From Marsupella aquatica (lineage: Eukaryota > Plantae > Marchantiophyta), in contig OZ316899.1 in NCBI GenBank assembly GCA_973895155.1, positions 11,213,675 to 11,277,674 of the forward strand: a stretch of 64,000 nucleotides of DNA, read 5' to 3'. The notes beneath the pieces were generated by a model that searched no databases, had not been told where the DNA came from, and saw nothing but the letters and a program-made list of their open reading frames with translations. The position numbers were made by a program, and so were the translations under genes. Below, in pieces: positions 1 to 49,591 of this stretch. How positions within the stretch are numbered: the first letter of the stretch is position 1; every line of letters starts with the position of its first letter.

Positions 1-951
1 TATGTGATCTCTCACAAGAGTGCGCAAGGTAGGATATATCAATGGCATGGTGATGACAATTAAATATCCATCGATCAACACCATAAGCAGAGTGATCATA
101 GATTTCTCTATCACAAGCATAACCCTCTGCTTGACGATCTTTCAAGCAATGATAGTGCCACATAGTGGGACACCTAGCATAGTGGACTATGTTAGCCCAG
201 TACTCATCATCATGCTCACCACATGCCTTGCACCTATGAAGTGGGCAAGCTGTGGCATGAGCAGACAAACACTCAAAACAGAAAAACCTCACACAAAAAC
301 GGTCTGAACATTTCCTAACATCTGGTGCAGCATCAATAGAGCCCTCATAGGACCCCAACTTCCCACATTGTGCACACTTAGCCTGCTTCTCCAAACAATC
401 AGTGCACATTCAGTCTCCCTGGTGTGTTGATGGGAGGCCCACCCCTGGACAGTTGTTTTCTACAACAAGGTCAGACTCCGGGTTGAGGTGGAAATGCCTC
501 ATGCAAGGGCCCTCACAGATGACCAAGCTCCCACCATTGTCACAAATGGCACAACAATGAGCTGCCTTCTGGAAAATCTGACTTGCGGAGAAGTTAGTAA
601 CATGTGGCCCAGGTACACCTGTGTTGCTCACCTCTGTCACACAATTTTTTGCTGGAATTTTGGGGCATGCCATGCCTATGCATGAGACAGACAGTACAAT
701 TAAGTAGATGGTACAGGCAATACATTTTAGGAGACTATAGAGACAATACATTTTAGCAGATTTTAGCAGAAAGTAAAATTTAGCATTAAGGTACAAAGGC
801 ATTTGCAAAGTCTGCAATGAATTGGAATGGTCACACAAGGATGCAGAGAAGACATACTTTTGGTGTGTTGAGCCCACACACAAAACTGATCCCCTAGTAC
901 AATTGCTCCACCAAAACCTCAATTTTGTGGGAATGATTCACCAAAGGAGAT
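1..951 (-). pseudogene. EDM2/NSD-type multi-PHD-finger protein (exons ~951-858 and 675-<1); in-frame TGA at 410-412
   Basis: Reading through the TGA gives HCCAICDNGGSLVICEGPCMRHFH...CPGVG...*MCTDCLEKQAKCAQCGKLGS...VRKCSDRFCVRFFCFEC...CPLHRCKACGE...ARCPTMWHYHCL...WIFNCHHHAID, the Cys/His pattern of the tandem PHD cassette of plant EDM2. GTATGT donor (857) and ATAG acceptor (676) join in frame. Confidence 0.8.
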
Positions 952-1416
952 CTACAACAACATTTCATGCATTTGAATCACATACAATAGTTGTGACATG
1001 TAAAACAAACATTTTTTGAAGAGAATTGGTATCAAGCAGTGTGATAAGGGTTGTAATTTATACACCCTAAATAGGCTATGATAGTGGCTGAGACAAATAA
1101 GTCAGGCATAAATCACATTTTGCAGGTTATCATGGCCCATTAATTCATTGAATGTTGAAATGTTCACCAAGTTAAAGCAGTCACGAAAGCAGTCTTTGAA
1201 TAGAGACTTTTTAGTGAGCTTGCTAGCCTCTTAAATTAGGATATTATACTTAGTGCAACCATAATAGGATAAGTTATGTATTGTTGGCCCTAAAACCTGG
1301 ACCCAAAATTGCTCATACATCAAAATTTTAAGTAAATATCCTTTGTGTTGAAGTCAAAGTGTTAAGTTATAGGTCAATGGTCTCTAGTCTGTGCATGCGG
1401 TGTGACAAGTGGTCCT

Positions 1417-1908
1417 CTAGAGTGTGTGATCCAAATATGTGTAGACACCAAAGTCATCGGGGGTGGGGTCTGGGAGGGCAGGACAAGTGACATCACCAGG
1501 CACACTGCAGGATGGCGAGTGGTTCCAGATGATACATTGTGCTCTGTGCAAATACCGACATCCAAGAGAACGGTCATCCAACTCTGGGCCAGAAGCCCTA
1601 TAGACAGGACAGTCATATTGGCAAATATGCACACATCCTTGGCACCTAATTTGTGGTGGGTCATGTACAAGAGACACAAATACCAAGGATGTCGGGAAGG
1701 GTATTGAAGCAGGTAGAGGCCGGCTGTCACAACAACACAATGACCCTCTTTTGCAAAACACCCTCCCTCGCATGCAACAAAGGAAACAATATCGGCCAAC
1801 TCCTTGTTGCGAAACGTCGCGCATCTCAACATCTTCGCTCTTTTCCATGCCCACACCTTCGCAACCGGACCTTCGCAAAAGCTTTGCACTTTGCGACTCT
1901 TTTAACAT
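1417..1908 (-). CDS. Cys-rich ORF, possibly an upstream exon of the PHD gene or a separate cargo gene
   Basis: 163-aa ORF with CFLCC, FCKRGSLCCCD and CQGCVHICQYDC; same strand as and upstream of the PHD exons; no family recognised. Confidence 0.3.
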   Translation of the reverse strand: MLKESQSAKLLRRSGCEGVGMEKSEDVEMRDVSQQGVGRYCFLCCMRGRVFCKRGSLCCCDSRPLPASIPFPTSLVFVSLVHDPPQIRCQGCVHICQYDCPVYRASGPELDDRSLGCRYLHRAQCIIWNHSPSCSVPGDVTCPALPDPTPDDFGVYTYLDHTL

Positions 1909-2210
1909 CGCACAACTACGATGCCATACCTAACGCAATATTTGCGAAGCAGGAACTATGGGCGCGTTTGCGATTTTCCCAGAAACGCTAACGTAGCGAT
2001 GCTAAAATCATCGCCAGTTTGCGATTCAAGATACATTGGTAAATTGCGAGCAATTATTTCTCTCAATACTGCGATACATTTATGTTCGCTACATTTGCAA
2101 AATTAAACACATCTCAAACGTGCGGAAATCGTGTGTTCGCATATTTGTGATTCAAAAAATGTCGCAAAATTTGCGAGGATGAGCGTTTAGAACGTTTTGC
2201 GATGGTTGTG
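1800..2210. repeat. Cluster of TTGCGA/TCGCAA motifs (same motif as the CACTA subterminal repeats)
   Basis: Copies near 1807, 1890, 1941, 1967, 2018, 2043 and 2196, and a palindrome TCGCAAAATTTGCGA at 2162-2176. Confidence 0.75.
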
Positions 2211-3371
2211 TCTTGGCTATTTGAGATGACAGCTGGTTCTCAACGGTTTTGCAAAAGGTATTTTTGAAGTATTAGGGTATAATAGGGTTTAATAGTGGTT
2301 TAGGGAGACAATTCATACAGTTGAAGGAGGGAGAAAAGGGATGTAGGTAGACCGGAATGCCGCGATTAAAATGGCATTACTCAAAAAGTACAAAAGTTAC
2401 AAAATGGAAGGGTAAGACCCCTTAGCTAAAAGTTGCATGTCCATGCTAATCCCCCTATACATGTGAACTACCTAAGTCTCTAGGGTAATCTAGGCACCTA
2501 TCTAGATAGAGCTAGAAAGGAGAGTTCCTGCCCCTCCTTGACTTCTTCCCCTTGGCCTTCTCCTTGCCCTTGCATGCTCTTGGGGGGGGGGGCCTCCTCC
2601 TCCTCTTGGTCTCCCTCCTCATCCTCATCCTCATCCTCATCCCCATCACCACCACCATCCCCATCACCATCACCATCCCCAACCCCATCCCCTACCGCAC
2701 TACCACTCGCAGCACCAGTGGAGTGTGCTGATGCAAATGACTGCTCTCCAATGCTAGTTGGCCTGACTCGACTAGCAGGAGCAGTACTCCCCTCCCCTGT
2801 CCCCTCCTCATCCTCATTGCTACTATCACCCTCGGTATGGGAGTCACCATCATCATCCAGTCTCTGTTACATTAGCAAACCAGCCATGCATTAGTCATAT
2901 AGAACCTTACAATTAAGTGCATGACATAAGAGGGAATTTTTCATAAATGCAATCAACACATTAACCTGAAATTAACGCTCACCAATAATTGATCAACTTG
3001 CCGAAAGAGATGCTCCTTCCCATGTTTCTGGCCCACCTCCATCTCAGCCGCTGTGATCTTCCTCTAGTACCTCTTGTACTAACCAAAACAAAAACCGGCA
3101 CAATTGGTCAAAACCAAGCAATAACAGCAAACCAAAATGCCTTAAAACAATTAGAGCGGTTAATTAGGTGCTGGTGGGGTTGGGGCTTAGGTTGGGGGGT
3201 GGTTTTACAAGGGTGGCATGGGGGCTTACGACCCTCAAACAACACTTGAACGTTTTGAAATTTTCAAAAATTCAAATTTTTGAAATTTGCGAAGTCTCCA
3301 GCTTCGCAAACGTAAGGGAAAACTAGGTTGCAAAAGTAATTGAGATGCGCGTGGCTTCGCAAGGGCATCGC

Positions 3372-3518
3372 TGTTATGAATACACAAGATGATAGTAGTC
3401 AATAATCCCCACTCACTTCCATTATGCCAAGGACTTATATAGTCCAGAAGGGTTAACATGGTTGGGTTAATGTTAACCTATCCTATACTAGGGTTAAGTC
3501 ATATTATGGGTTATAACA
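3372..3518 (-). repeat. 3' LTR of copia-1 (147 bp); PPT AAGGGGAAG at 3519-3527
   Basis: Identical by eye to 9018-9164. Confidence 0.97.
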
Positions 3519-3857
3519 CTTCCCCTTGGTTACTTGGACGGGGTGTCAAGGAACCACACATTTAACCCTAGTTTAAAAGTGGGAGTCACTTATGATGTAG
3601 CCTCATCAAACCTTGCTGCTTTCCTCTCAAGGAAGAGTACTACCATCATTACAATTTGTGGTCCCTAATTCAGAAAGTCTCTAATGTGTATGCTCTAAGT
3701 CTAAAAGTAGCCTATTACTGTCTAAGCCAGTGGGCTAAGAGTAAGTAAGCGTTTATTTGTTACTCTAGTCGGGGTAGTATTGTATTCATGACGGGGGAAC
3801 ATGTGTCTCTCTGTAAACTGTTCGTTAGATACTATGATTTAGTAGTTTGTCGAGGTT

Positions 3858-6800
3858 CTACTTCGATTTTGCGTTGGCTGTGTGTTCGTGTCGGGAGTTG
3901 TCGTTAGTCGAGGAGGTTAGGGAGGAGAGACGATGCATTCCAATGGCGCTGACGTGCTTTCGATGTGTAGTCGCTGGTAGCGGCTTGGTGAAGAGGTCGG
4001 CGCAATTGTCTTGTGAGCTTATCCACTTTACTTGTATTTGCTTTCCGCTGTGTTCGTGCGTAAAGAAAAATTTCGGGTCTATGTGCTTGGTTCGATCGGT
4101 CTTCATGTAGCCTGTAACTATCTGGTCGACGCATGCCCTATTGTCCTCGTAGATGGTGGTTGGATTTGTGAGTAAGGTTTTTCCTGTCTGTTTGAGTATA
4201 TGTGTGATTATACTACGGAGCCAAATCGCTTCGCGGCATGCCTCATAGAGGGCAATTACTTCGGCGTGATTCGATGACGTTGTGGTTAGGCTCTGCTTCG
4301 TGCTTCTCCAAGATATGGCGGTTTTACCCTGCAAGAAGACGTATCCTGTCTGCGACTTTGAATCTTGGGGGTCTGAGAGGTATCCAGCGTCCGCGTATCC
4401 TGTAAGTTCATCCTCGCTTTCGTTGGGGAAGAATAGTCCCATGTCAATTGTTCCTTGGAGGTATCGGAATACTCGTTTTATGCCGTTCCAGTGGCGTATT
4501 GTCGGGTGCGCGCTATGTCGTGCGAGGAGGCTCACTGCAAAGGATATATCCGGTCGGGTGTTGTTGGCCAGGTAAAGGAGGGCTCCGATAGCCGATAAGT
4601 ATGGCTTATCTGAATCTAGTATTGGTTCGTTGTCCTGTCTTTGCCTGAACATGTCCTTCGCAGTGTCTAAGGATCTCAGCTCCATTGGTGTTGATACCGG
4701 GTATGCCTTTTGCATATTGAATTGTTGGAGGATTTTGTTTGTATAGGTAGACTGGCTAATGAATGTGCCTGTCTGTAGGTGATCGAACTGAAGGCCGAGG
4801 CAGTAAGTCGGTTCTCCCAGTTCTTTCATCTCGAAAATGCCCTTCATTGTGTTGATTGTTTGTCGTAATAGTCGTTGTGTACCGAAGAGATTAATGTCAT
4901 CGACATATAGCGCTAACACGACGAACTCTGTGTCTACTCTTTTGATGAATATACAGGGCGCTATGTCTTCTGTAATAAATCCGAGTGCTTGTATTTCGGT
5001 TTTAAATTTCTGGTACCATATACGGCCGCTTTGTTTCAGGCCGTTTATGGATTTCAATACTTGCACAGCAAATGCCTGCTATCCAGTCCTTCGTTTTCCG
5101 GGGTACTGGAGTGGTGCTTTCTGTGTGTTGCCACTGCTCAACACAAGGCCTTTACAATCATCATTAGGGATAATCTGGTCAATTTCCGACTTCATATCCT
5201 TGCTCAGGTTCGGGTATTGCTTCCCCTGAATGTGTTCTGCCACTCTTTCGAGTAATTCCTTTGGTGCTTTCATATGAATTTCGGAGTCTAAGACTCCATA
5301 TAGGTATGCCGTTACTACGTCCATAAGGATATTGCATAACTGGTGTTTGCGAGAGAAAGCAATTAAATACCTGAATGTCGTCACGTCCATTACTGGTGAA
5401 TATGTTAGATCATAGTCCCTGTCTGGGATCTGGGTGTATCCTTTTGCTACTAACCGCGCTCTGTATCTGATAACATCACCTTTTGCATTTCGCTTTTTAA
5501 TGAACGTAAATCGGCTGTCTGTATAGTCATTGTTAGGATCAACTTGTTTGACTGGTCCGAAGACTTGTCGACGGATTAGTGCATCCATTTCTGTGTCAAT
5601 GGCCTCTTTCCAGTGTGGCCAATCTGACCTTGTTTGTGCTTCTTTGATTGTTAAAGGGTCCGAAGTATCATTGGTTATTTCTTGAGCTATATGGTAAGCA
5701 AATTGTTCGTCGACAGTAGTGTTTTGTCTCGTGTAAATTTGTCCTGTATGCTTATACTGAATTGACATCTCCTCATTACCCGATATGTCTGGTGTCTCGG
5801 ATTCATTATTAATGAAGTGAAAAGTAGTTTCAGGAATTACCTGATGGGGGCGTCTTTGGCGGGGTCGGGTATCATGTGATCCTGGTGGCCTACCTCTTTT
5901 CGCCTTAGGGGCAGCTACTGTTGCTGGAGGAGTATTCATTTGTACTCTGGCTGGTACATTGGTTGCCTCGTTGTGGGATTTTGTAACATTTGCTGCATCA
6001 TTAAATGCATCTGGGATCTTATCCAGCATCTCGTGGAGGTGGAGTAATCGTCTAACTTCTGCATCCGTTTGTTTCGTCCTCGGGTCCTGGTTGAGTAAGT
6101 TTCTGCTGTTCCAGTTGATCTTGTGTGGGTGCAAGTCCCCTGTCATTTGTTTGTCTATGCTTAGGGTGGGAAAAGTGTCTTCGTAAAAATGACAATCTGT
6201 ATGTCTGGCCTTAAACACATCGGCTGTTGTCGGTTCCAGGTAGCGAATGATCGAGGATGAGTCATTTCCGATGTAGATTCCTTCTTGTCTTTGAGGTCCG
6301 ATTTTTGTACGCTTGGGTCCCAGTATTGGGACCATGACTTTGCATCCAAATACCCGCAGGTGTGACAGGTCTGGAGGTAGTCCGAACGCTAAGTGGTGTG
6401 GAGTCTTTGTGTTGAACGCCGATGGTCTGTATTGAAGCAGTGTGGCAGCATGGAGGACTGCGTGTCCCCATGTGGATAGGGGTAACTTTGAATTCATTAA
6501 CAGGGGTCTGGTTATCATCTGTATATGCTTGATAACGGATTCTGCCATTCCGTTTTGGAAATGGACATATGGGACTGAGTATTCAGTGTCAATGCCCGCT
6601 GCCCAGCAAAACTCATCGAATGCTTTTGAGGTGAATTCCCCTGCACCATCCACTCTCAGTTTCCGAATTGGATGTTCTGGGAATTGTGCTTTAAGCTTTA
6701 GAATGTTGGCCAGTATCCTAGCGAAGACCAAGTTGCGTGTAGAGAGTAGAGATACTTGCAGCCATTTGGTCGAAGAGTCGATGATGGCCAGGAAATACTT

Positions 6801-8471
6801 AAACGGTCCACTTGGTGGGTGGATCGGGCCGCATACATCTGCGTTCAGGTGTTCCAGGAAGTTCGGGATGGCATAGATTGTCTTCTGTATTTGTGGGCGT
6901 GTAATCAGCTTCCCCTGAGAGCACGCCAGGCATTGCCTTTGTTTTGTTGATGGGTTGACTCCTTGGGGGATTCCACGGGAGTCATGAATAATTCTGCGGT
7001 ACATATTTACTCCGGGGTGTCCCAGTCGACAGTGCCATAAGTATGTGATATCAGGTAAGTCTGCAGTGACATAGTGAGCTTGAATTTGAGTTGCGTAGAG
7101 GCCTGGTGGTATAAGGGGTAAGGTTTCTTTAATATGTATACCTTGTTCGGTAACCTCCACGATTTGGAGGGTATCTTCCTCGTCTGTTTTCACTGTGCGC
7201 AGTTGATATTTATTTGCGACTATGTCTCGGAAGCTGATGAGGTTCCTTGTAGCTCGCGGGGCGAATATCGCTGCTTCGATGGCGAGTGCAGTGCCTCCTG
7301 GGAATATTACCGTGGCTGTGCCTTTACCCTCCTCAATCTGGTTTGTGCCTGAAATGGTGGTCATATGCCGGGCTGATGGGGTAATTGAGTGGAAATATTT
7401 CTTGTCCTTTAGTATTGTATGAGACGTACCGCTGTCAATTATGCCCAGATTGGGGTCTTGTAGTGTGTAGGGTCCTCTTGCTGGAGTTACTATGTGGGTC
7501 TCCACTTCATGAGGTTGTTCGGGGTCTTTGTAGGTGGCTATTGCTTCTTCTAGCTCCATGTAGTTCCCTGCTGGGTTTTGTTTGAGTCTAGCTCTTGATT
7601 CTGTATGTTTCCTGGCTGTTTGGTCCGATGCCCAACAATTTTTCTTCAGGTGTCCTATTTTTCCGCATCGGTAGCACATCCTGTCATCTTTGGTGTTGTC
7701 CGATGCATTATCACTCATCCTGCCTCTGCCGCCTACTCCCCTGCCTCTTGTGTTGTATGATTGTCGATATCCTCGACCTCTGTAGGATTGGTTTCTACCT
7801 CTGCCTTGGTATCCGCCTCTGCCTCTTGGTCGGCCTCGTCCCATGTTATCTCGCTGATAGTAATTTATCTCTGGTTTGTGTGGTGGTGGTTCTGTTCCCG
7901 CAGGTCTTTTTCGGGCGTTTTGCATGGCGACCACCTGTTGCTTCTCTTCTACAAGTAAATGTGCGATAAGATCTGAATATGTGGTGAATTGCATATTTCG
8001 GTACTGTGTACCGAGTGCAATGTTTGATTCGGGGAATGTACTCAGTGTCTTGTCGATCTTATCTGCGTCTGGGACTGGATGGCCGCAGAGTTCTAGTTGA
8101 GAGGTAATTTTAAATAGAGCGTTGTTGTAGTTAGCAATGGAAGTATGATCCATCACTCGTAGGTTGTACCAATCGCGGCGAGCCTCAGGAAGCCATATTT
8201 CGCGCATATGGTCAAATCGGGCCTTTAACTTGTCCCACAGGAGTCGTGGATTGACTTCGTTCATGTATTGGGATTTTAGTGAGGGAACCAAGTGCTGGCG
8301 CAAAAGGAACACGGCCTTGGCCTTCTGTTGTAGAGTCAGATTTTGGTCTGTGATTAATGTATCTTCAAGCTCCAACGATGCGAAGTATGTTTCCGCATCT
8401 ACGGCCCATGTCAAGTAGTTGCTGCCGTCTACTAGTAGGGCTGGGAAATGTAACTTCTCCAATGTCGCCAT
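3858..8471 (-). CDS. Copia gag-pol polyprotein, single frame with one in-frame TAG (5079-5081)
   Basis: Zn knuckle CYRCGKIGHLKKNC, protease IIDSGTSHT, integrase HCRLGH/CLAC plus DDE, RT YGLKQSG and LYVDD, RNase H GYADAGY and YEDN. ORFs 5079-8471 and 3858-5066 share a frame. Confidence 0.95.
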
Positions 8472-9002
8472 GTCTATTTCGCCTGATTTTGGGCCTTATA
8501 AATATATGGTGTTCCTTTGTATCAAATGCCTATGACTTTCGCCTTGTCCCGCCCGATCGATCGGCTGTTGTGATGGATCAAGTTAACCAAAAGAAAGAGA
8601 AACGATAGCGATCCTTTCGCTCAAGGCACGGGACTCATCTGCCCCTTGAATCGCATCCAAATTGTCCCCGATGGAGTTCGTTCGTATGTCCTTGTGTGCG
8701 GTCCTCAAAGTTTTCAGTTTTCGCCAATGTCTTTTATTTTGTTTTTCACGTCTCGTCGCGTTGTCTCCTTCGTTCAAGGTTGAGAATCTTCGCTCGTGAT
8801 TAGGCTCGACGCTCTATGGCCAGTTCTTTGTTCTTCGATCATAAGCTTGTTTTCTCTATTCTCGGGAGGTAGTTAGGCGGTTATTCTCGCCATTAGAGCA
8901 AAAAACACACAACATTGTGTTGTTTTCTTTGTGTGGACCTCGATCTATTGAGTTGTCAGATTTTGGGGAGGGAGCACATGTAAAAAAAATGTAATTGAGC
9001 AA

Positions 9003-9017
9003 GTCGCGCTGATAACG
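9003..9017 (-). promoter_or_regulatory. Primer-binding site complementary to the anticodon arm of tRNA-Ile (half-tRNA priming)
   Basis: Minus strand CGTTATCAGCGCGAC directly after the LTR; plus strand GTCGCGCTGATAACG resembles eukaryotic tRNA-Ile(AAT) GTCGTGCTAATAACG as I recall it. Confidence 0.7.
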
Positions 9018-9164
9018 TGTTATGAATACACAAGATGATAGTAGTCAATAATCCCCACTCACTTCCATTATGCCAAGGACTTATATAGTCCAGAAGGGTT
9101 AACATGGTTGGGTTAATGTTAACCTATCCTATACTAGGGTTAAGTCATATTATGGGTTATAACA
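9018..9164 (-). repeat. 5' LTR of copia-1 (147 bp)
   Basis: Identical to 3372-3518; followed by TSD ATCGC. Confidence 0.97.
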
Positions 9165-10739
9165 ATCGCAAAATTATTTCCAAAAAAGTGAATAACAAGG
9201 TTTGCAAAGCGACGCGCATCGCAAATGCTTTGCAAACTCTGTTATGACGAAAAGTCGAAAGGGAAGCAAATGTACGTGACCTAATCTGACACAACAACTC
9301 CAATTGGAAGTACTTGGTGCCACGGCAGAAAAGAGTTGGGGCATTGCAAGTGTGTTGGAATAGAAATTGGAGGAGTAAGAAGTCAAGAGAGGAGAGGGCG
9401 ATGCACTCACAAATGCTGCTTTGAGGCCGGGGAGGCCACCTTGACCAAGCCTGTGGGTGATGTTGGGCTTTTCTTGGACTCTCTCAACTACCTTCAAGAA
9501 CTTGTTGGGCGGATCTCCCACCTCTGCTACAACCTGCTGCAGTTGGGCCACCTTCTGCTCCATCATCTTCAGGTCACGGTCAGACTTCCCGGCCTCCTTT
9601 GCCTTCCGGGCCTTTGTCAACTTCTCTGTAAATTCATTCAGGACCCTGGCTGCTTTCAACTTCACCTCTGTGGCATAGAAGGCCTGCCAGATATCTTATG
9701 AGAACTGCAGCGGCCTCCCCAAATTCCTGTACTCCTCCAGATCTCTCAAGTGAACCCTGATCTTCATCCTGTCATGGTATCGTGCTTGTGACATGGAATT
9801 TGAGATTTTATCAGCAAGCCACTGTGAATCCATCTCTCCTCCATTTTGGAATGCATCTTTCACCTGATTGATCACTCGCTTCTGCTCTGCCTTGGAGAGA
9901 GTGCCCCACTCGACTCCTCTTGCAAAATTTGTGGACACAATGTGTCTGATTGTGCTCTTGGCCCCATTGTAAGCAAGCTCTGTGGGAATTCCCTCATCCT
10001 CTAATGTAATCAGAGGCAACTTCCTCCTTGCCTCCTTCTTTCTCTGCTCCTCCCTCTATTTCCTGATCAAGTCTCTCTCATATTTCCTCCTCTTCTTTTC
10101 CAAGGCTTGAGGGGAGAGTACTCCGGCCTGAGCTCTCTCATCCCTCTTTCGCTTCTTCTCGATCAGCGGCCTTCTGCTCGGCTGTCCTCCTTTCTTCCTC
10201 CTCTCTTGCTACTTTCCCTGCACTGAGACCAGATTGCAAGGCCTGGCCCAATAACGCACTCAATGATGCAAGCCCTGCTGGAGAGGTGAAATCAATCTAC
10301 TCAACTGCGCAACCGAGAAATGGTCATCCACGATCTTTTGAAGTCAATCCTCCTCCTCTAAGTGGTTGCCTCCGCTGCTGCCAGAAGCTCCTCCATCACC
10401 TCCAGTTCCCCCTCCGCTTGCCATTGCTCCTCCCTCGCCTGCGCTGCTCTCTCCCAAGGCCCAAAAGAAATGGATCCGCCTCATCCGCGCTCGGCAAATG
10501 ATAAGGACAGTAGAGTTAGGGTTTGCGAAGTCATTCGCATTGTAGTTTGCGATGGTTCTACCTTCTCAACCAGCTTCGCAAACGTTATCTTTGTGAAGAA
10601 TACAGCTTTGCAAACGTGTTCGCTATTGGGTTTGCAAAAACCCCCATCTCGCATGTGTATTTTCTGTGAGCAGGGATACTAAGAGGGGTCATAAACATTA
10701 AATTTGGTACAAGTAATTCATTGCATGTGATCATATAAG

Positions 10740-11240
10740 GGTTGGGGGGTTTAAAAGTGCTGACATTGGAGGGTAAGAGGAGGGGTCTTATGTTGCGGCT
10801 TTTGGGTTTGGCCTGGTTGGGGGGGAGTGTTATTTCAGAAGGTTGGGGGTTGTATTGAAAGGTAAGAGACGGGCATTTATATTTTGGCTTTTGGGTTTTG
10901 CCTGGTTGGGAGGGTTTTTATTTTATGAAGGTTGGGTTATGTGTATTGGAGGGTAAATGGAGGGATTTTATGTTTGACGTTTGGTTTGGTTTGGGGAGGG
11001 TTTATTTTATGAAGGTATGTTGGGCTTAGATTGGAGGGTAATATGAGGTGTTTTATGTTTTGGGTTTGGCCAGGGGGATTTCATTTTATGAATGTTTGGC
11101 TTATATGTATTGGAGTAAGAGGAGGTGTTTATGTTTTGGCTTTTGGGGTTTAGGCCAACTTAGGAGGGAAAGACAGGTTCTATTTTCATGGACACTTGGG
11201 TTAATTTTATGGTAATTTATGAGGGCAAGTTCTAAGAGGT
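10740..11240 (+). repeat. Degenerate G/T-rich tandem repeat (~75-90 bp unit) between the divergent CACTA genes
   Basis: Recurring ATTGGAGGGTAA...TTATGTTTTGGCTTTTGGG...TTTTATGAAGG blocks. Confidence 0.7.
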
Positions 11241-11757
11241 TTTTATGCTAACAATTGAGGGGAAAACCCATGTAATCATGATACAGCCCAGGGACATCAC
11301 TACTTCCTCAACTTTTGCCTAATGCATATGCATTGTGGGAACCCGGGCATCTAAAAGGTATAACTGTATGTATGTAGTGTTGTTAGTGGAGATTTTTCAT
11401 AAACCTTGCCATTTTTTGTTTTGCAAGAATATATATATGTGTAACTTATGTTTGGGGTTCCACAACTTGAGAGATGCTAATGACTATCCTAAACTTACAT
11501 TTGGTTTCCAGTATTTTCCTCCTACTTCTAGATTTGGCTCATGTTCATTGAGCCACACGACCTATAGGCACTGTTGAGCCCGGGTCTCATTCAGGTAATT
11601 CACTAACCTAATTCAGGGCTTAGACCATTACAAATTTCCCAAGGGTGACATTGTGATATTTTTGTGCATGACACTCTCCTTTGGGTTTCATGCTAAACAA
11701 AAAAGGGTTTTTGTAGTTTAGTTTTAGGATATTTTTTGGCCAAGAGGGATTCTAATC

Positions 11758-12947
11758 ATGCCCTACATGCAATGTAATGTGGCAGTGGATATGTCATCCT
11801 CCTCTGAACTATCCAGTAGTGAGTACTCCTCCTCCGATGATGTACCCCCTCCTCCTCAACCTGAGGTTACCGGTCCTCGTGGTCCTCCCCGGAGACTTTG
11901 TGAGTGCACCAGATGTGTGGGCCAAGTTTCTCAAAAATCTTATGTGTGTGCTCAACATATTGAGAGATATGGACGTCACAAGGGTCTTACTCCGGGGGCT
12001 TCTTCATCCCATATGGTACGTGGATTTCAATTGTTTGCCTTTTTTCCCTCATATTTTCATAAGTGAATCAATGTTTACACATATGGTTTTTTGTGGGTTT
12101 TTGCATGGAATAGGGATCCAGTATGCGTAGACCGGTGACTGTACCACCACCCTATGTCCCATCACAAGGAGTTTTAGATGCTATAGGCAATGCACTTTCA
12201 CAAGCCTTGGGTGTAGGGATCAGTACCAATCATGGGACTGAACAGGAACAGTCTCATGTGCCCACTGAGACACAAAGACCCCCGTCCAGGCCCCAGTCCA
12301 AGAGGAAACCACGAGCACCCAATGACCCATCAAGAACACTAGTTGAGGGTAGGTGGGGCATTTGTTCATTCACTGGCAAGTGTGCCTCTATCATCAAAGA
12401 TTGGGATCCTATGACTCTTGGCTTGCCTTATTTTCCCGGTTATGATGAGGAGATTGTGGTTTGGGGTAGACGTTGGATTGTGAAAGCTTCCACACTTGGA
12501 GAGAGACACGGATATGGAGTATTTGCTTGTGAGGATATCATCATGGATGATGGGAGTGGGTCAAGTGCTCGTGGTAGAGAGGGTCCTACTTTGTTCCCAT
12601 ATGGTGGACCCATCTACAAGAGAAGACACTGGAACATGATGCTTGCACAACATCCTGAGTGGAAAACATATGCCCTAGAGATGGATACTTTTCATGGTAG
12701 CACTAGAAGGTATAGTGAGCAGCGGGTGATAGACGGTGATCCAGTACGTAATGGGAATATTGCTGGCTTTATAAATAGTACTGTGGGGACTCGACCCAAG
12801 CATAGGGCCAATTGTGAGTGGGTTTTTACTGATGGCCCAATGCCGGCACCATATGGAACGACATATCATAAGGACCATTGCTTAGTTCTTGCCACTAGGA
12901 CTATTAGAGCTGGAGATGAGTTATTCACACACTATGAGTGGGATTAG
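11758..12947 (+). CDS. SET-domain (lysine methyltransferase-like) protein; exon 1 11758-12015 (CxCxxC..H motif), exon 2 12114-12947
   Basis: Exon 2 has the SET motifs HGYGVFACEDI, PYGGPI, IDG...GNIAGFINST, ANCEW and LATRTIRAGDELFTHY. GTACGT donor at 12016 and ATAG acceptor at 12113 join in phase 0; no stops. Confidence 0.85.
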
Positions 12948-13195
12948 GGAGCCATGTCATACATCCTCTTGTACCTTGTGTGTACTTCACACTTATCATT
13001 ATATACATGTCCTCTGGCCTCATTTTGGATTAGTATAATTTTGGTGTGGCCCTTCACTTAAGTTCTTAATGTGAATGCATGCAATCAATCCTTAAAACTG
13101 ATTGTTAATTTGTCTTGAATGAATGGTCTGAAGTCTGTTTTTGTTGTACCTGGTGAAATATACATCAAGAGGTTTTTTGGTTGTGTCGTGCGTAG

Positions 13196-16100
13196 AATGT
13201 GCAACCATCTTAAAAAATGTTACCACAAAGGTTGAGAGCAGCATATCGGGAGATGGGCATGCCAGAAGAGGGAGAACCATTAGAGGATGATTCCTCATCA
13301 AGTAATGATGTAAGTGATCATGGTGATGAGGAAGCAACACCTCAAACTGATGACCAGGTCATGCATGACCAGGACAGAGCCATGGATGACTTCATGGTTG
13401 ATTGGTTTGGTGTTGATGTTGAAGATGGTGTCCCTGACATTAGTGTTGAAGGAGCTGCCCCCCAAAATGACCCACGACCACAACATACTCCAGAGGGACA
13501 ACAACAATGGAAGGAGGCTGAGGAACATGCCCGGACACCTATCTTTGAGGGTGCTCGGTTGAGTCATTTGTCAGCCATATTGGGGTTGTTGAACATTCAG
13601 GCCAAACATAAGGCAAGCAATTCTATGTTATCAGACATATTTGAATATTGTCATGACCTGATGTTACCCTTGGAGAATGTGTTGCTTGGAACTTGGAAGG
13701 ATGCAAAGAAGATTCTCTCATCCATTGGCATGGATTACCATAGCATTCATGCCTATGTGAATGATTGCATATTATTTCACGGGGACAAAGCCCATATGAC
13801 AGAATGCACAGTATGTCATGAGTCACGATATGACCCAAACATGCTAACCGGGAAGGTGCCAAGAAAAGCAGTTCGTTGGTTCCCCATTATTCCCCGCTTG
13901 TTGCACATGTATAGATGTTCTGACTTGGCCGAGTTGATGGTATGGCACAAGAAGCATCGTTCGGAGCCCGGTGTGATGCGATTACCAGTTGACTCTCCTG
14001 CTCATAAACATGTGGAGTCAACATGGCCAGATTTTGAGCGTGACCCTCGGCATGTGCGACTTGGGTTGGCATCAGATGGGGTTAGCCCTCATTCACTTGG
14101 AGGGAAGGGGAGACCTACATCAGTTTGGCCGGTGGTTCTCATAAATTACAACCTTCCACCATGGTTGTCCATGAAAAAGGGCTTTTTATTGCTATCTTTG
14201 ATTATCCCAGGGCCAAACAAGGTGAAGAACATGGACACCTATTTGGCATTAGTGGTTGAGGAACTCCAAAAATTATGGGACGGAATATGGGCATATGAGG
14301 GTCGAAAGACTACAGGGGGTACCCCACGGGGTTTTTAAACTAAAAGGGGTTTGTATGTGGACCATGCATGACTACCCAGATAAGAACTATGAAACTACAA
14401 CACTTTTTTTTTTACATCCAGCATGATATGATAATGCATGTTATCCCCTCATTTCCATGTGCTAATTCTACATTATGTGTGTCTATACGACCAGGATTTG
14501 GCTTTGTGAGTGGGTTGCAAACCCAAGGCTACAAGGCTTGCTCCACTTGTGGCCCAAGTCTTGGTGATATAGCCAAGTACTCATCACACCTTCACAAGAT
14601 TGTTTATCTTGGGCATACAAAGTTTTTGCCAATGGGCCATCAGATGAGGTTTGACCCACTAGTATTTTCCTCCATTGATATGCCCTTTGGTGATGAACGT
14701 GATATACTAGAGCCAACAACTTTTGCACATTGGAAAGACTTGGCTGATAGAGTGGCAAACCCGGAGGATCCCATGCAATTTGAGGGTAGCGGGTTGACTA
14801 GATGGAGTATATTAACCACTTTGCCTTATTGGGGAGAGTTGAAGATCCGCCATCTATTAGACCCCATGCACATTGAGGGAAATGTGGGAAAGGCTTTGAT
14901 AAAGGCTTTCTATGGAAAAAAGGACACTAACTTCAGGGAGGCTTGTGAGGATCTTGAGATGCATCCAGATGTATGGGTCACAATTGATCCTATCATAGGG
15001 ATAGAACATCGACCTTCAGCCCCATGGGTGCTTCCTGTTGGCCAGAGAAGGGAGTTTAGGAATTGCATAGGAGGCATGCAGTTTCCTACTGGTTATGGTG
15101 CCAATCTCCGGAAGGCCTTTGGGATGGAGGACAATCATAAGTGGCCAATGTATCTCAAGACGCATGACTATCATCGGTTATTGCAACATATATTGCCCGT
15201 GGCCATAATAGGTTTGGCAAGTTCAGAAGTGCAAGATGCCATTTGGTCATTGGGAAAACTATTGAGATGGGTATGTTCTAAGGAGATATACTGTGAAGAG
15301 ATCCCGGGAATGGAGGTACTGGCAGCAGAGGTGGTATGCAAGTTAGAAAAGGCCCTTCCTCCTTCCTTTTTTGATTGCCAAGTGCATTTACTTGTTCATC
15401 TTGTTCATGAGGTGGCCATTGCTGGTCCTGTGCATTGTCGGTGGATGTATTGGTTGGAACGGTACATGGCAGTATTAAAGGGTTATGTACGTAGCCGGAC
15501 ACGGGTTGAGGGAAGCATGGCTACAGGATACTTGGCAGCAGAGAGTATGTTCTATTGCAGTAACATATTGGCCACAATTGATCATACTTCTCCCTATACT
15601 TGGGTAGAGGAGAGGGAAGATGAGGAGGATCGTTTAACAGGTGCTATCAAAACCCGCATGTTGACACCAGTGGAGTTGAAACAACTAACCACATTCATGT
15701 TGAGTAACAGCACTATCATGGAAGAATGGAGGGATTTCTATGAGGATGCCAAAAGTACCAGTAGAAGACCAAGGATCTTTCCAAAGTACCATGACTACAT
15801 GAAGGAGAAGTTGGTTGAGGTGGATGACATGGTAGCGAGGGGAGAGAATGTATTACATTTTCCAGTTATCACAGATGACGTTCGTACCATTGTTCATGGT
15901 CCCCTGAGAATGGTTACAACAAGGATGGCAATGTGGACACAAGGGAGACATTTCAGGTTATTTCCAAGTACCTTAGTAACCTTTCATCTATGGTGATTTT
16001 AATTTATGTGTAATACACCCACATATATTGAAGAGACAATTTTTTGGCATGTGATATTAATTGTTATATGTTTATGCCTATTTTTGTAACATGTCCTTAT

Positions 16101-16608
16101 GGTTTGATGGATTTTAGGGTTTCTTCCCTTGATGAGAAGAGGGGTCATACCTTTGATTGTGGAGTTCAAGGACAATTCTCTCAAGATTCCCGCAGCAGTC
16201 GCCATGACACAAATATTATTCAAGATGTTGTGCCACATGATGGAAAGATAGAGGAGATCCTAGTGATCTCTTATGATCGATGCACAATCAAAGTTTGAAG
16301 AGTATGTCTTCAAGTGCAAGTGGTTCAAAGTGAACCTTGCAGGTAACAATCCCACTGTGCTTCAAGATGAGTGTGGATTTACACAGCTAAAGACATCTGC
16401 CACTAGTTTCCAGCCATCTCATTGGCAAACATCAGAGCCATTCACTTTTCCAAGTCATGTGGAACAATGTTTCTATATTCCATACCCCTTAAACCCAGAG
16501 GAATGGTCACTTGTCATCACATATGTGCCACGATCTCGTTCAGTTGTTGGGGAAAAGCCAGATATTCTGGTTGTGTCCCAACCTGAAGAGGATGAGGACC
16601 AAGGTTGA
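13196..16608 (+). pseudogene. CACTA TnpD/Tnp2 transposase (Transposase_21, DUF4218 and DUF4216 regions), degenerate
   Basis: IHAYVNDCILF, CTVCHESRY, LGLASDG, NYNLPPW, WTMHDYP, LDPMHIEGNV, LKTHDYH, PPSFFDCQVHLLVHL, WMYWLER, FKCKWF and EPFTFPSHVEQCFY. Frameshifts near 14335 and 16290; introns ~14380-14495 (donor mutated to AT) and 15957-16116. Confidence 0.93.
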
Positions 16609-16849
16609 GGGGTATATGTTATGTGGATATATAGTTCGATTTGAACATATGAGGATCTCTCTTCTTGGTTGGAGAAATATGTGTTTCTAAACTATTAATA
16701 AATTTATGTTTGCCCAAATCAATCTTGTAAGTATATCAATTTTAAATGTGGCTTTTTTACATCGTCCATCCCCACAGTCCTATGTACACTCCCACACCTT
16801 TTTGTACACTTTATGAAAAGAAAACTCATGTCGCTTGTAGTCATTCCTC

Positions 16850-17290
16850 CTCGTAGCTTTCCTTCTCCCACCCCCTAGCCTTTCTCTCTAGTACTCGTAC
16901 CCACCTCCCTCCTCCCCTTGTCTCAACCCCTTCCTTTTTAAAACCTATACATGCCCTCAATTTTTTCCACCTTTCACTGTCCTCAACCTATGCTCCTCCC
17001 TCCTTGGCTTGTCCCCCTCCTAAACCTATACCTTCCACCCTCCCTCCCTCCTCCCTCCTTTCCTTTTCCCTCCCTAAACTGTAGGTAGGTACGCTCCCTC
17101 CTCCCTCATTTCCTTGTGCACCCTAACCCGCCCTCCTCCCTTTGTTCCTTGTCCCCCCTTAAGTCAACCCTTCCTCCTCCTTTTCTTCCTAAAGTGCACC
17201 TCCCAAAACTGTTTGTACCTCCTCCCTCCTCCCTCCTCTCTCCTTGCATGACCCTCCTTCCTCCATTCCTTGTCCCATGCCCTTTCTAAA
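16850..17290 (+). repeat. C/T-rich low-complexity repeat (CCTCCCTCCTCCCT units)
   Basis: Many CCTCCCTCC copies downstream of the transposase. Confidence 0.75.
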
Positions 17291-17319
17291 TCTGACCAAC
17301 CCCAAAACCAAATTTCCGA

Positions 17320-17857
17320 ACCATTTTGCGAACCCCCACCCATCTCAACCTCATGGCTACATTAACAATCCCCGTCTCATCACTACATCCCATCCCAACA
17401 CCATCGCTACATTCCGAAGCAACGCGCATCTCAACTTTCCAAAACTCAAGCCTTCTCTAAAGAGAACCACTGAGGTGCCATGATTTTGCGAGCCACACCA
17501 TCTTGCAAAGTAGCGATTCTCTAAGTTTCACTGTATTGCGATTAATTTTGCATCGCACACTGCTTTCCGATTACACACATATTGCAACGTTATTGATGCA
17601 ATCGGCGTCGCAAGTTGTTTGCAAAACGGTAAACATTGCTACTAAGTAGAATGCTCAAAGGTTCAGAAAAATTTTGCAAGATATTTGGTTTTGCAACTAT
17701 TTGCGAAGATGTTGGTTTCGCAAATTGTGGTTGCGATGGTGTGAGTGTCGCAGTTTGCGATGCGGTTTGTATCGCAAGATGAGCCATGAATGGCGCTTTG
17801 CGTTGCGTTTATCCCCTTGTAATTGACCTTCGCAAAAACGGCAAATATGTAGTAGTG
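17320..17857. repeat. CACTA right subterminal repeats and terminal inverted repeat
   Basis: TTGCGA/TCGCAA copies near 17484, 17536, 17608, 17700, 17717, 17731, 17754, 17772 and 17829; terminal TAGTAGTG. Confidence 0.85.
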
Positions 17858-18456
17858 TGTAGTTGTTCCTGGCAACAACAGGGTACTCAAAGTACCATGC
17901 AGACTGGGCTGGAAGGATCCCAAGTCTGACATACTCAAGGTGCAACATCTCTGCCTTGCATGCAAGCCGCACATGTTCAGCGTTGCGGGTCCTCACCATA
18001 AGTGTTGCTTTTGTTGTGATGTCCTTTGTTCACGTCCTTTGATGAGCAAGGCGAGCAGGAGGTCAACTTGCCTTGCCAACAACAACCAACCTAAACACAT
18101 CAGTTCCCACTCACTGACTTGGTTCCAACTATAGGTCACAGTATACACATAGCATGAAAAGTGCATAGTACAGATTTGATGCTAAGTTTCCTAAGACAAA
18201 GAGCTTGCTGATAAACCCATGTTCTCAATGGACATGTATATAAATCATATTTGGATCCTGTTTTTTCATCCAAAAAGAGCAAAAGTCTCACCTTGCAGGT
18301 TGCAGCAGAGAGAAAATTCACTGGTTGTCTAGTTGTGCAAGTGAACCTCCATTGATGCACCCGGTGTAGCCCCTCAAATGCAGGTGACACTTAGCAACTC
18401 CCAAGTTGCCTGGTCTAATAGAAAATGCTTATATCTTCAAAAAGAGTCAACTCTAC

Positions 18457-31417: not shown

Positions 31418-31847
31418 TCTACACTTGGTTCATACACATAAACCCTAAACTATTCATATTTGGCCTTATGGAACTCTTGCCAACTACAACTCCCACTATG
31501 CACAAGCTCACATCAACAGAGAAAGGATACAAAATGCATACTTACTATGGCTCCAAAGTTGCAAGATCAAGCAAGTAGTCAAACACACTGAAACAAAGCG
31601 GGTGGCAGTTTCAGTATCTCAGGCAATGCAAGTTTTGTTCATTTTGCAAGGTTTCAATATTCAAACTTCATGGAAGGAAGATATCATTATGGGAGAGGTT
31701 GATCGTTAAAATGGAATATAGTGGCTAGGATTTCTGTAAACGGTAACATTACACCGGTTAAATTATAGTCCTTTAGTCTTAGAAGCGTCAGCCAGAAGTT
31801 AATCCAGGGTATTTAGGGAGCAGCACTCAAGGACCGGTAGCAGTTCA

Positions 31848-33285: not shown

Positions 33286-33327
33286 GGGACAGCAGGACCT
33301 ACCTCGGTCATTGCTACTATAACAACC

Positions 33328-45254: not shown

Positions 45255-48200
45255 ATTTCCCACCGCAAATGCAATGAATGATTGGCTACAGAGTATATAT
45301 TTTGGAAGTCTTTGTGATTTCACATCCGGCGAGATAGGACTTAGAATGAGAGTCAGGGGATTTTGTGGTAAGGACTACACAAGAAGGTCAACGTAGGATT
45401 TCCCGCCTAGTACACAAGCTGAATGTAAAATTGAGCAATAGTACCTTCCAGTATTGGCCCCGGTAGCTCCAAGGTCAGACTCCACCAAGCTTGCGCAAAT
45501 GAAACTCAGGTCCAGCCTGTGCTCACTTCATGAGGGCCTTGCAGGATTCAGCTCAACTCAGCTCAGCTTAGCTCCATGTATCTCCACCTGAGTTGCACCT
45601 TTGTTTGATTAGCACTATTGCTATGTAAATAATGGCCATAAGCAAACCGTAAGAGTTTGCAAAATGCTACGACAAGTAGGATTATGAAATTCAATTGTGA
45701 GCAAAGGGAAAATGTAGTATTACTAATACTTCACCTTCTGACTGGATTCTAGAGGATAATTGAATTGCCAATTATAGCAGGATGAGAATGAGTGTGAGAA
45801 AAATGCCAACACCATAGGCAAACAATGAAAAAGTAATAGGGCCGGGCAACGTACTCCGCCTAGCACCCTGCACTTAGGCCACCAACCAGCACTTGGAGCA
45901 ACGGCCTGCACTTTCACGGTTAAACCTACACTTGGACAGTTAAAACATATAAACTTTTATCAGTCTAGGGAAGGGATAAATGCATTCATTTCATATTGAA
46001 GCTCAATTTTTGTTTAAGTCGATTGGAATGATGGCATAATGCCTTATGGCAAAATGCCTTATTCACTTTGCTGAAATTCAGCAGGTCAAAGCAACAGTTG
46101 CAATGAAGGACACTATGTACATAGACACAATTAAGACAAGAATACTTCAATCTACACTGGAATCAAGGTTGCACAACTTACCAGGAAAAAGAGGCAGTTC
46201 AAGCAGGAGCTTTGCAACAAAGGCACCACCACAAAGAATGCTAAAAGATGTCAACCCCCCATAGCTAAAGGTAAACGCTGTGAGCTTTTGAAAACAGACA
46301 AGGCTTGAGGGATTCATCCAATGTCCCACTTCAAGGCAAGACAAACTATTCATCCATCACAATAGTGCTCCATAGGAATGAAACCAACCAAAATTTGGTG
46401 ACCTCGGCCAATGAACAATCTTGCATAGATAGGATTCCATGTTGGAGTAGCTTGACCGATCAGGATATGGATTGGAATTACAATTAGTTAGCTCTTCTTC
46501 TTTGTTTTCTAACTCTGGGGAAATGAGCATGACCAGGGAATTCTCTGAGAAATAGAAGTGCACAGGGAAAATGAAATTGGCTCATTGAGCTGCACAAGAC
46601 CGACCACTGTAGCATACTTGGACAATTGTTTCGCAATCCATAAAATACCCTGACTTACATGCAATGTGTACACAGCTTTTGTTGCCTGTCCCGCAGCTCA
46701 CGATAGTGGCGTTGGGACAGGGTAAGTGAATATTGCCATAGTTGAAGCACATTGAGCTTGCAGCAAGAAGTGAAGGAGCATGGCCAAAAGCAGAAAAGAC
46801 AGACAGGTTTGACAAGAAGAAAACTAACAACCGCCAATGAAGCTGCTCAAATCCGCTGCACAGATCAAACCCTTTGAACTACACAGCCCTCCTTTGAAAA
46901 CAATCCAATGTGCTATGGTTGGTGGATGACAAGGACCGGGAGAAGAGGACCCACCCCATGCTTTAGACCCACCTGAATCATTCAGCAAGCCAGCCAGACC
47001 ACACCATTTCTGCTCCTCTGCCTCTTCACCCCCTCCTCCTCCTAGCACCAATTTCAGTGCTTTGAATTCTGCATTGGCGCCACAGCTTCAACAGCCAGAT
47101 CAAAGAGCGGCTCTTCTTTGCCCTTCAACTCAATCTGCTGCAAATGATAGCAGTCAGATCATTCAATGCAGCACAAACAGAGAAATAGAATACAGAAACA
47201 ACAAATAGAAATTGCGTAGCTGTGTGGCCAAATGAAGCAACAATGCAAACAACAGCTTCAAAAAGAGAGACCAGAGGCAATATCAAAACGGAGCATTTTG
47301 CATCTAAGGCCAACAACGCCGTTGCAAAGATGGTTTAACCTCATTTTGAGTCAAGACTAAAAGCTTTCTAAAGATCTAGTCATTCCGCGATTCCTTAAAG
47401 AAAAACCCGTGATGGACATGCAATGTTGTGCTCAGCAATGAACATAGTAAGGCAATGCAACGGTCATCGTAGCTATGAAGGAGAAATGGTAGTTGAAAGT
47501 CTACCTCAAACAATGGAGTGTATGAATAAGCGCTCAACAAGGTCACCTGAAAAATGATACACAGTTCCTAAAGATGACTCATGAACTGGCAGAAGGGGCA
47601 GCATGGCCAGAAGCAGAAAAAACAGACAGGTTTGAGATGCAAAAAACTAACAGCCGCAATTTTTCTTGAATCTGCTCGCCTCAAACAGTATTGAATGTTA
47701 CTCACCACTCACATAGCTCCCTGTACCGCCTTAAACCCTACCTGTGGTGAGGTGAATTTGTTCCGCAATGCATAAAACACCTGCAACGTGACTTAGATGC
47801 AATTTGTACAAAGCTTGACCAGGTCACTCGCAACTCACGGCAGTGGCGTTTAAGCAAATATTGTGATAGTTGAAGAACACTAAGCTTGCAAGAAGTAAAA
47901 GAGCTTGGTAGTGCGGTAGCAGCAACAACTTACATAGACAATGACCTCCCTTGTGAGACTGTTTGAAAGACCTCAATACAATTACTGAAAGTAGAGGGAC
48001 AAAATAGGGAGAAGCATTTTGCACCTTGGGACGGTGAGGAGTGTAAGCACTTAAGGGAGGGCCCGCAGGAAGGTCACTAAGTCCGAATGAGCCGCAACCT
48101 TATTGCCCAAAACCGCACAAACCCAAAGTTGAAATTAGCACTAAGAGGTAGCAAGCTACAAAAAAGCATTTCCTAGATTCTTAATGCATGGCATTGGAGC

Positions 48201-49319: not shown

Positions 49320-49591
49320 AACCCTTGTAAGACTTTGTATTATCCTAGTCTTTGTGTGGACCTTTATTGTGGATTCCAAGAATAAAATCCATGATGTGTA
49401 GAGTGTTCACCCTTCACCAAATAGTAAGTATACTTTTCATAGTCTTTAACTAAACCGGAAAACATTCAAAGTTTTTTATAGTCTTTAACAAAACCTTGGC
49501 AATGGATGCGAGTCATTTAAAGTATGGAAGAAGGACTTAGTGGGCTTAGTCCTATAAGGTATGGTCTAAATTGCCCCGGTTTCTACTAGTG
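49320..49591. mobile_element. Probable right end of another CACTA element
   Basis: ...CCGGTTTCTACTAGTG (reverse complement CACTAGTAGAAACCGG) preceded by repeated TAGTCTTT/AAGACT motifs; partner end not found. Confidence 0.45.

What the first reader, a model, noticed from the sequence alone, without database searches (positions are those of the whole stretch)
1..951. EDM2/NSD-like tandem PHD cassette as probable transposon cargo with working splice sites
The ORF track stops at 410, but the frame continues to base 1 with two more Cys/His fingers; the TGA replaces an expected Trp. The linkers look shorter than in host EDM2 as I recall it, and the upstream exon is not EDM2-like, suggesting an old, remodelled capture.
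Basis: partly seen in the sequence, partly recalled or inferred. Interest (0 to 1): 0.72.

Follow-up and report, generated by a model that had tools for sequence, protein, structure and literature searches.

The report
Repeat-borne PHD reader with histone-tail mimic
This is a broken copy of a small, highly repeated plant gene, probably carried by a transposon, whose intact relatives join three chromatin-reading zinc fingers to a start that resembles the histone H3 tail, a pairing that may help the repeat evade silencing.

Summary
The cassette is real: three EDM2/NSD-type PHD fingers on the minus strand (ATG 673 to the edge). This copy is dead, with a stop at a Trp, a lost zinc ligand and a 4-base frameshift.

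It is not a piece of EDM2. Relatives are stand-alone proteins of about 225 aa that end just after PHD3 and form one long-branched clade (100/100). The DNA is a high-copy repeat. It lies outside the neighbouring CACTA element (1728-17857), which inserted into it; contigs span the empty site in 3 of 4 runs. No transposase or end of the host repeat was found, so 'transposon cargo' is likely, not shown. Splice signals are canonical but untested.

Best reading: a probably transposon-borne chromatin reader with a built-in H3 decoy, likely used against silencing. Binding and expression are untested.

The parts
1..675 (-). Coding exon of the compact triple-PHD gene (pseudogene copy); ATG at 673-671; inferred to end about 12 bases beyond the window edge
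   Evidence: relatives P0002/P0003 end three residues after the last motif seen here
641..670 (-). H3-tail-like decapeptide right after the start Met; this copy keeps A1, K4, A7, K8 and reads Cys at position 2, where the other copies' DNA gives Arg
   Evidence: base 667 differs in 95-100% of laid depth in all 4 runs
395..553 (-). PHD1 (NSD/EDM2 first PHD), interrupted by TGA at 412-410 in the place of a conserved Trp
236..376 (-). PHD2; the His ligand of EDM2 is Cys throughout the family; linker to CPxH is 8 residues
47..232 (-). PHD3 (variant); one Cys ligand reads Tyr at 181-179 in this copy only
34..37 (.). 4-base insertion that shifts the frame before the EDM2-type closing motif
   Evidence: table 4
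676..857 (-). Putative 182-base GT-AG intron, 40% T; splicing not tested
858..951 (-). Putative upstream exon, no ATG, in-frame TGA; probably untranslated
1..1727 (.). Host repeat, left piece: very high laid depth, CpG observed/expected 0-0.3
1420..1727 (-). 3' part of a Cys/His-rich 159-codon frame of the host repeat that is split by the CACTA insertion (5' part 18029-17861); no family or relative found
1728..17857 (+). CACTA transposon inserted into the host repeat (TGT duplication, decayed left end); not the carrier of the PHD gene
   Evidence: joint 1724 to 17858 in X2, X3, X5
17861..18456 (.). Host repeat, second piece, high depth; ends at a Gypsy insertion
31423..31734 (.). Third piece of the pre-insertion DNA, between two Gypsy elements (5-base duplications TCTAC and ATTTC); depth not measured
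45260..49500 (.). Continuation of the pre-insertion DNA; whether it still belongs to the host repeat is not known; no Pfam match in six frames

Best explanation
This is a dead copy of a small gene in a high-copy repeat, probably a transposon, whose intact relatives encode an H3-tail-like N-terminus followed by an EDM2-type triple PHD finger, and which likely serves the repeat as an anti-silencing reader with a built-in histone decoy. Shown: the cassette, its lesions, the stand-alone family, the conserved H3-like register, the repetitive DNA, and the position outside the CACTA. Inferred: (1) the Met is removed, leaving a free Ala-Arg-x-Lys start as on H3; (2) the PHDs bind H3 tails, as EDM2's bind H3K9me2; (3) lacking EDM2's acidic stretch and methyltransferase-like domain, the protein would compete with or redirect host readers at silenced chromatin; (4) its own tail would be a substrate or ligand for host H3K4/H3K9 writers and readers, or for the PHDs of another copy, and so act as decoy and switch.
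For: Stand-alone relatives of 220-245 aa at 75, 73 and 53% identity. 15-25 residues follow the last His, against a median of 653 in 91 long relatives. The 16 longer hits have about 30% identity and are mostly named EDM2. The compact rows form one clade, 100/100, stem length 1.75. The AlphaFold model of P0002 has pLDDT 88 and pTM 0.82 and matches PHD/PZP and NSD tandem PHD structures. Repeat: summed depth over 1-617 is about 20-215 times that of the multi-copy Copia inside the window in 3 of 4 runs, with up to 33 contigs at one place; CpG is depleted; at least 10 of 21 relatives in A2 stop early or leave the frame, and L001 shows such a break in DNA; three other elements are nested in this DNA. 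H3 likeness: K4 15/15, R2 13/15, A7 11/15, K/R8 11/15, K9 8/15. R and K are invariant with nine Cys/His/Gly columns in 11 rows of 28% mean identity. The true H3 order beats shuffled orders at p about 1e-4; with the first four letters fixed, 6 of 720 orders of the rest do as well. [AST]RxK occurs before PHD1 in 14 of 18 family rows and 7 of 128 other rows. 6 of 17 relatives begin with M-small-R-x-K, the published definition of H3 N-terminal mimics, met by 48 of about 21,000 human proteins (PMC8166343).
Against: No transposase, terminal repeat or target duplication of the host repeat was found, and its left end is outside the window. The tool warns that summed contig depth is no copy number and that runs found with this stretch cover it by choice; run X5 does not show the excess. 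The H3 comparison was chosen after seeing the sequences, and the rows are related. H3 positions 3, 5, 6 and 10 are poorly matched. Two close relatives (P0003, P0004) lack K4 in register. In 7 relatives the motif lies 6 or more residues inside the called protein. 3 of 152 other proteins also start M-A-R-x-K. Residues 1-21 have pLDDT under 50, so no stable docking on its own PHDs is predicted. The acidic residue before the first Cys, present in 88 of 91 long relatives, is absent in 17 of 17 family rows, so the binding preference may differ from EDM2's.
Confidence: 0.5

Rival explanations
1. It is a repeat-borne PHD reader, but the basic N-terminus is only a nuclear localisation or DNA-contact signal and the H3 likeness is incidental.
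For: Net charge before PHD1 is +5 in the family against -10 in the others. Several H3 positions are unmatched and P0003/P0004 lack K4. Three unrelated short EDM2-like proteins also start M-A-R-x-K. A PDB search with one N-terminal piece found nothing.
Against: Order matters beyond composition: 9 of 18 rows beat shuffles of their own upstream segment at p<0.05, against 12 of 128 controls. A neutral Ala at position 7 is kept in 11 of 15 rows while the spacer behind it is not conserved.
Confidence: 0.22
2. It is a host gene family amplified without a transposon (tandem arrays or segmental repeats, for example on a sex or B chromosome) and now mostly decaying.
For: No mobile-element hallmark was found around it. 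It has a gene-like layout with a GT-AG intron before the start.
Against: Only one copy lies in 64 kb. It sits in a nest of transposons, is CpG-depleted and has very high laid depth. None of the 13 compact-family proteins looked up comes from an annotated NCBI genome, whereas the long PHD relatives do.
Confidence: 0.16
3. It is a passively captured EDM2 fragment (Pack-type) that never had a function.
For: This copy and many relatives are broken.
Against: Zinc ligands, an 8-residue linker, a His-to-Cys swap and the R-x-K motif are kept across rows of 28% mean identity. Six relatives look full-length and intact. The coding part is one exon with its own start and stop.
Confidence: 0.08
4. It is cargo of the adjacent CACTA element, paired with that element's SET domain, or else the 5' part of a normal EDM2 gene.
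For: A CACTA with a SET frame lies 1 kb away. The best long hit is a lycophyte EDM2-like protein at 34%.
Against: The CACTA's left end is at 1728, and contigs join 1724 to 17858 in 3 of 4 runs. Close relatives stop right after PHD3.
Confidence: 0.03

Closest known systems
Arabidopsis EDM2 and EDM2-like proteins (ASI1-AIPP1-EDM2 complex)
   Same: Same run of two and a half to three atypical PHD fingers, including the closing motif after PHD3; 28-34% identity. EDM2's PHDs bind H3K9me2 (PMC7472560, PMC7529245, passages read).
   Different: About 225 aa instead of 1000-1400; no acidic stretch, RFD-like or adenine-methyltransferase-like domain; PHD2 linker 20 residues shorter, with Cys for His; basic H3-like start; high-copy and mostly decayed.
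NSD1/2/3 PHD1-3 cassette
   Same: Pfam PHD-1st_NSD, PHD_NSD and PHDvar_NSD matches; profile hit on NSD2 at E 4e-11.
   Different: No SET or PWWP domain; scores to plant EDM2-like proteins are much higher.
H3 N-terminal mimicry proteins (H3TMs; Chen et al. 2021, PMC8166343) and short histone mimics (G9a ARKT, influenza NS1 ARSK; PMC6028506)
   Same: M-small-R-x-K start in 6 of 17 relatives and, by the other copies' DNA, in this subfamily; several also keep the K9-type A-[RK]-K.
   Different: Those were described in human or viral proteins. Here the mimic is on the same chain as an H3-reader cassette and lies in a plant repeat. No binding was tested here.
Transposon-encoded chromatin factors: VANC of Vandal MuDR, SET of HarbingerS and oomycete MuDR, TET/JBP of fungal DNA transposons (PMC12730594, Introduction read)
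   Same: A chromatin-acting accessory gene multiplied in repetitive DNA, plausibly countering silencing.
   Different: A reader plus mimic rather than an enzyme or DNA-binding factor; the carrier element is not identified.

Membership tests
EDM2 / EDM2-like | Tandem atypical PHD fingers of the EDM2/NSD type | tested here: met
EDM2 / EDM2-like | C-terminal adenine-methyltransferase-like (ELP) domain and long C-terminal part | tested here: not met
   relatives end 15-25 residues after the last His; the window itself ends before this point
EDM2 / EDM2-like | Acidic region before PHD1 | tested here: not met
   net charge +5 against -10; 0 of 17 against 88 of 91 with an acidic residue before the first Cys
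EDM2 / EDM2-like | Single- or low-copy host gene | tested here: not met
   (many contigs, very high depth; not a true copy count)
EDM2 / EDM2-like | Binds H3K9me2 | not testable with these tools
   needs peptide binding assays
NSD histone methyltransferases | SET and PWWP domains on the same chain | tested here: not met
   no such Pfam match in the 10 compact rows scanned or in P0001
Cargo of the adjacent CACTA element | Lies between the two terminal inverted repeats | tested here: not met
   ends at 1728 and 17857, TGT duplication, empty-site contigs
Transposon-borne accessory gene (any superfamily) | High copy number with many decayed copies | tested here: met
Transposon-borne accessory gene (any superfamily) | Element termini, target duplication or linked transposase | tested here: inconclusive
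   none found in the pieces inside the window; left end outside the window; no genome held
H3 N-terminal mimicry proteins (H3TM) | Starts with iMet-small residue-Arg-x-Lys | tested here: met
   6 of 17 relatives at their called start; this copy has Cys for Arg, the other copies' DNA gives Arg; 11 of 17 relatives do not meet it at their called start
H3 N-terminal mimicry proteins (H3TM) | Peptide is bound by H3 readers or methylated by H3K4 enzymes | not testable with these tools
   bench assay needed
Spliced, expressed gene | Transcript joins 858 to 675 | not testable with these tools
   canonical ends only; no RNA run was available to lay

The most novel reading that the evidence does not exclude
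A plant transposon family encodes a dedicated anti-silencing protein made of a histone H3-tail mimic fused to a captured, streamlined EDM2 reader cassette: histone mimicry, so far described for viruses and host proteins, used by a selfish element against the plant H3K9me2 silencing loop.
Probability: 0.3. Interest if true: 0.87.

Novelty: new variant of a known kind. Interest (0 to 1): 0.66.

Why it matters
Few transposon-encoded counter-silencing factors are known in plants (VANC is the model case). A conserved, small, foldable protein that pairs an H3K9me2-type reader with an H3-tail look-alike would be a new strategy in that arms race, and it is directly testable with peptides. It also offers a minimal natural version of the EDM2 PHD cassette: no EDM2 structure came up in the PDB searches. 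The copy in this window is dead, so the value lies in the family, not in the locus.

Tried and rejected
No whole genome is held, so copies and termini could not be mapped. No RNA holder was listed; this says nothing on expression. Depth beyond 18500 was not obtained, so the upstream extent of the repeat is open. The wide structural search did not complete.

The first metagenome scan found no relative among 112 pattern matches. The second gave 22 loci, of which only L001 belongs to the family; L002-L004 encode unrelated long PHD proteins and L005-L022 match only 22 residues.

The upstream Cys/His-rich frame had no relative among 23 candidates and no credible Pfam match; the Atlas look-up for it did not complete. 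A Helitron-type hairpin scan and a repeat search found no convincing end. A 25-residue N-terminal piece found nothing in the PDB at E 10.

The quick tree placed the family beside liverwort EDM2-like proteins (SH-aLRT 83), but the careful tree did not, so no donor is claimed. The idea that the repeated motif clusters inside the CACTA mark a second element end was dropped once the empty site fixed its limits. The permutation script timed out and was rerun. bioRxiv 10.1101/2024.09.22.614159 and PMC10288648 (passages) held nothing on this family.

Full report
OBSERVATION. The minus-strand frame that opens at 937 stops at TGA 412-410 and resumes to base 2. Read through, residues from 676 give three Cys/His fingers. 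Pfam matches are PHD-1st_NSD (E 9e-6) and PHD_NSD (E 6e-4), both under the curated cut-offs; the best PDB sequence is NSD3 (E 0.003). Three unnamed proteins of 226, 220 and 245 aa match at 75, 73 and 53%, and all have Trp at the stop. Contigs of four public runs laid on the window differ from it at nearly all depth at 667 (Cys here, Arg in the others), 180 (Tyr here, a Cys ligand in the others) and several more places, and a 4-base piece at 34 is absent in contigs of two runs. With that shift the last codons match the relatives' closing motif, and the protein would end about 12 bases beyond the edge. Of 47 replacements against P0002, 38 can be one-base changes and 15 of these are C>T or G>A, as expected for decay in methylated DNA.

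NOT EDM2, BUT DERIVED FROM ITS KIND. The search for longer relatives returned 16 proteins at 28-34% identity, mostly named EDM2 (best pair). The profile search found 328 proteins and listed 150. The top of the list is a set of short proteins from Logan, JGI and ENA contigs. In a tree of 63 rows, the 9 compact rows form one clade at 100/100 on a stem of 1.75; its sister is unresolved. That tree took rows with at least 150 residues of PHD region and a hand-picked subset of the long relatives; P0022, P0024, P0025 and P0087 were left out. Family traits against 91 long relatives with all anchors: PHD2 knuckle-to-CPxH linker 8 residues in 8 of 8 scored rows against a median of 28; Cys in place of the knuckle His (89 of 91 long ones have His); 15-25 residues after the last His against a median of 653; no acidic residue just before the first Cys in 17 of 17 against 88 of 91. 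The PHD3 spacing is unchanged, so only one linker is short. AlphaFold folds P0002 at pLDDT 88, pTM 0.82, with residues 1-21 disordered. Foldseek's best matches are PZP domains and NSD tandem PHDs, with low whole-chain TM-scores. The family profile hits NSD2 at E 4e-11.

CONTEXT. A CACTA transposase (Pfam Transposase_21, DUF4218) lies at 13214-15996. Its right end is at 17857, followed by TGT; a decayed left end at 1728 is preceded by TGT and followed by the same cluster of subterminal motifs. Contigs join 1724 to 17858 in runs X2, X3 and X5, and loose ends at 1727 or 17858 read into the opposite flank in X1, X2 and X3. So the PHD gene is outside this element, in the DNA into which it jumped. 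That DNA continues at 17861-18456, is cut by a Gypsy element (TCTAC duplication), resumes at 31423-31734, is cut by a second Gypsy (ATTTC) and resumes at 45260. Summed depth over 1-617 is 77,450, 347,355 and 35,244 in X1-X3, about 20-215 times the bins of the Copia inside the CACTA; X5 (384) shows no such excess. The tool warns that this is no copy number and that the runs were found with this stretch. Still, up to 33 contigs cover one place, and one contig there has depth 7,447. CpG observed/expected is 0-0.3. At least 10 of the 21 relatives in alignment A2 stop early or leave the frame; some may be contig ends, but L001 shows a real break with the rest of the cassette in the next frame. No transposase, terminus or Pfam match was found in the host pieces. 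A transposon carrier is therefore likely but not shown. The host is a land plant by its genes, probably seed-free; this is inference only.

SPLICE SITES. 951-858 has AG and GT ends, and the 182-base intron (40% T) ends in a pyrimidine-rich AG two bases before the ATG. Such signals are common: 3 donor-like and 11 acceptor-like sites in 1727 bases by a loose filter, and the acceptor at 952 did not pass that filter. The exon has an in-frame TGA and no ATG. Two relatives also have Gly before the Met (P0004, P0022), which fits a conserved acceptor but does not prove it. No joint over this intron is among the 15 of 123 joints shown. Function of the sites is untested.

THE H3-LIKE START. About 30-40 residues before PHD1 the family carries a decapeptide in register with histone H3 1-10. 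H3 1-ARTK-4 and 7-ARKS-10 are taken from PMC6028506 (passages); positions 5-6 are recalled. In the 15 of 22 rows of A2 without gaps there (six gapped rows and one near-duplicate dropped), K4 is present in 15, R2 in 13, A7 in 11, K/R8 in 11 and K9 in 8, but T3 in 2, Q5 in 3, T6 in 0 and S10 in 1. In 11 rows of 28% mean identity the R and K are invariant along with nine Cys/His/Gly columns. Against 200,000 shuffles of the H3 letters p is about 1e-4, also with one row per subgroup (7 rows); with the first four letters fixed, 6 and 12 of 720 orders do as well. [AST]RxK lies before PHD1 in 14 of 18 family rows and 7 of 128 others; 9 of 18 and 12 of 128 beat shuffles of their own segment. Six of 17 relatives begin M-small-R-x-K, the definition of H3 N-terminal mimics, met by 48 of about 21,000 human proteins (PMC8166343, abstract and passages). 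Limits: the test was chosen after seeing the data; rows are related; P0003 and P0004 lack K4; seven rows carry the motif internally; and three unrelated short EDM2-like proteins also start this way.

MECHANISM. EDM2's PHDs bind H3K9me2 within the ASI1-AIPP1-EDM2 complex, and EDM2 alters silencing at over 2,000 transposons (PMC7472560 and PMC7529245, passages). I put this at about 0.5. Rivals: a plain reader with a basic import signal (0.22), a non-mobile amplified host family (0.16), a functionless capture (0.08), CACTA cargo or true EDM2 (0.03). The model predicts no stable docking of the tail on its own chain.

KNOWN AND NEW. Transposons are known to carry VANC, SET and TET/JBP genes (PMC12730594, Introduction and passages). 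Ten literature searches, judged from listings and abstract starts, showed no transposon-encoded EDM2-type PHD protein or H3 mimic. The library lacks most subscription papers and Repbase Reports, and no supplements were read, so absence from print is not established. The scan's own index held no look-alike of P0002. Earlier AI notes describe SET-bearing CACTA elements in mosses and liverworts and decayed fungal genes with an H3 tail before a PHD-like finger; these are leads only. Verdict: observation confirmed, interpretation partly supported, new variant of a known kind, interest 0.66.

Noticed in passing
window 12114-12947 (+): The CACTA element carries an open SET-domain frame (Pfam SET E 5.8e-6, above cut-off) upstream of its transposase; multi-copy in all four runs laid.
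   Followed up: partly
window 9174-10208 and 2498-2866 (-): Minus-strand frames inside the CACTA, split by a Copia; no credible Pfam match; probably a second, divergently read gene of the element.
   Followed up: no
window 3372-9164: Copia element with identical 147-base LTRs and a 5-base target duplication; its empty site is seen in two runs.
   Followed up: partly
window 18029-17861 and 1727-1420 (-): A 159-codon Cys/His-rich frame becomes continuous when the CACTA is left out; no family or relative found; it may be another gene of the host repeat.
   Followed up: partly
window 49570-50013 (+): Broken C-terminal fragment of EF-1alpha (Pfam GTP-eEF1A_C), with an in-frame stop.
   Followed up: no
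window 57384-58947: Small element with CACTA-type ends and internal inverted arrays of a 19-base unit; probably a non-autonomous CACTA.
   Followed up: no
window 18457-31417, 31735-45254, 50871-56301: Two Gypsy elements and a second Copia, each with a clean 5-base target duplication.
   Followed up: partly
proteins P0050, P0051, P0081: A separate clade of short (320-386 aa) EDM2-derived PHD proteins, nested among flowering-plant-type EDM2 rows, also starts M-A-R-x-K; possible convergence.
   Followed up: no
proteins P0028, P0033, P0039, P0067, P0072: Liverwort EDM2-like proteins (Marchantia, Riccia, Calypogeia) of 620-770 aa with the PHD cassette near the C-terminus and little sequence after it.
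   Followed up: partly
run X1, joint 908 to 17858: One contig lacks 909-17857, a deletion ending exactly at the CACTA insertion site.
   Followed up: no
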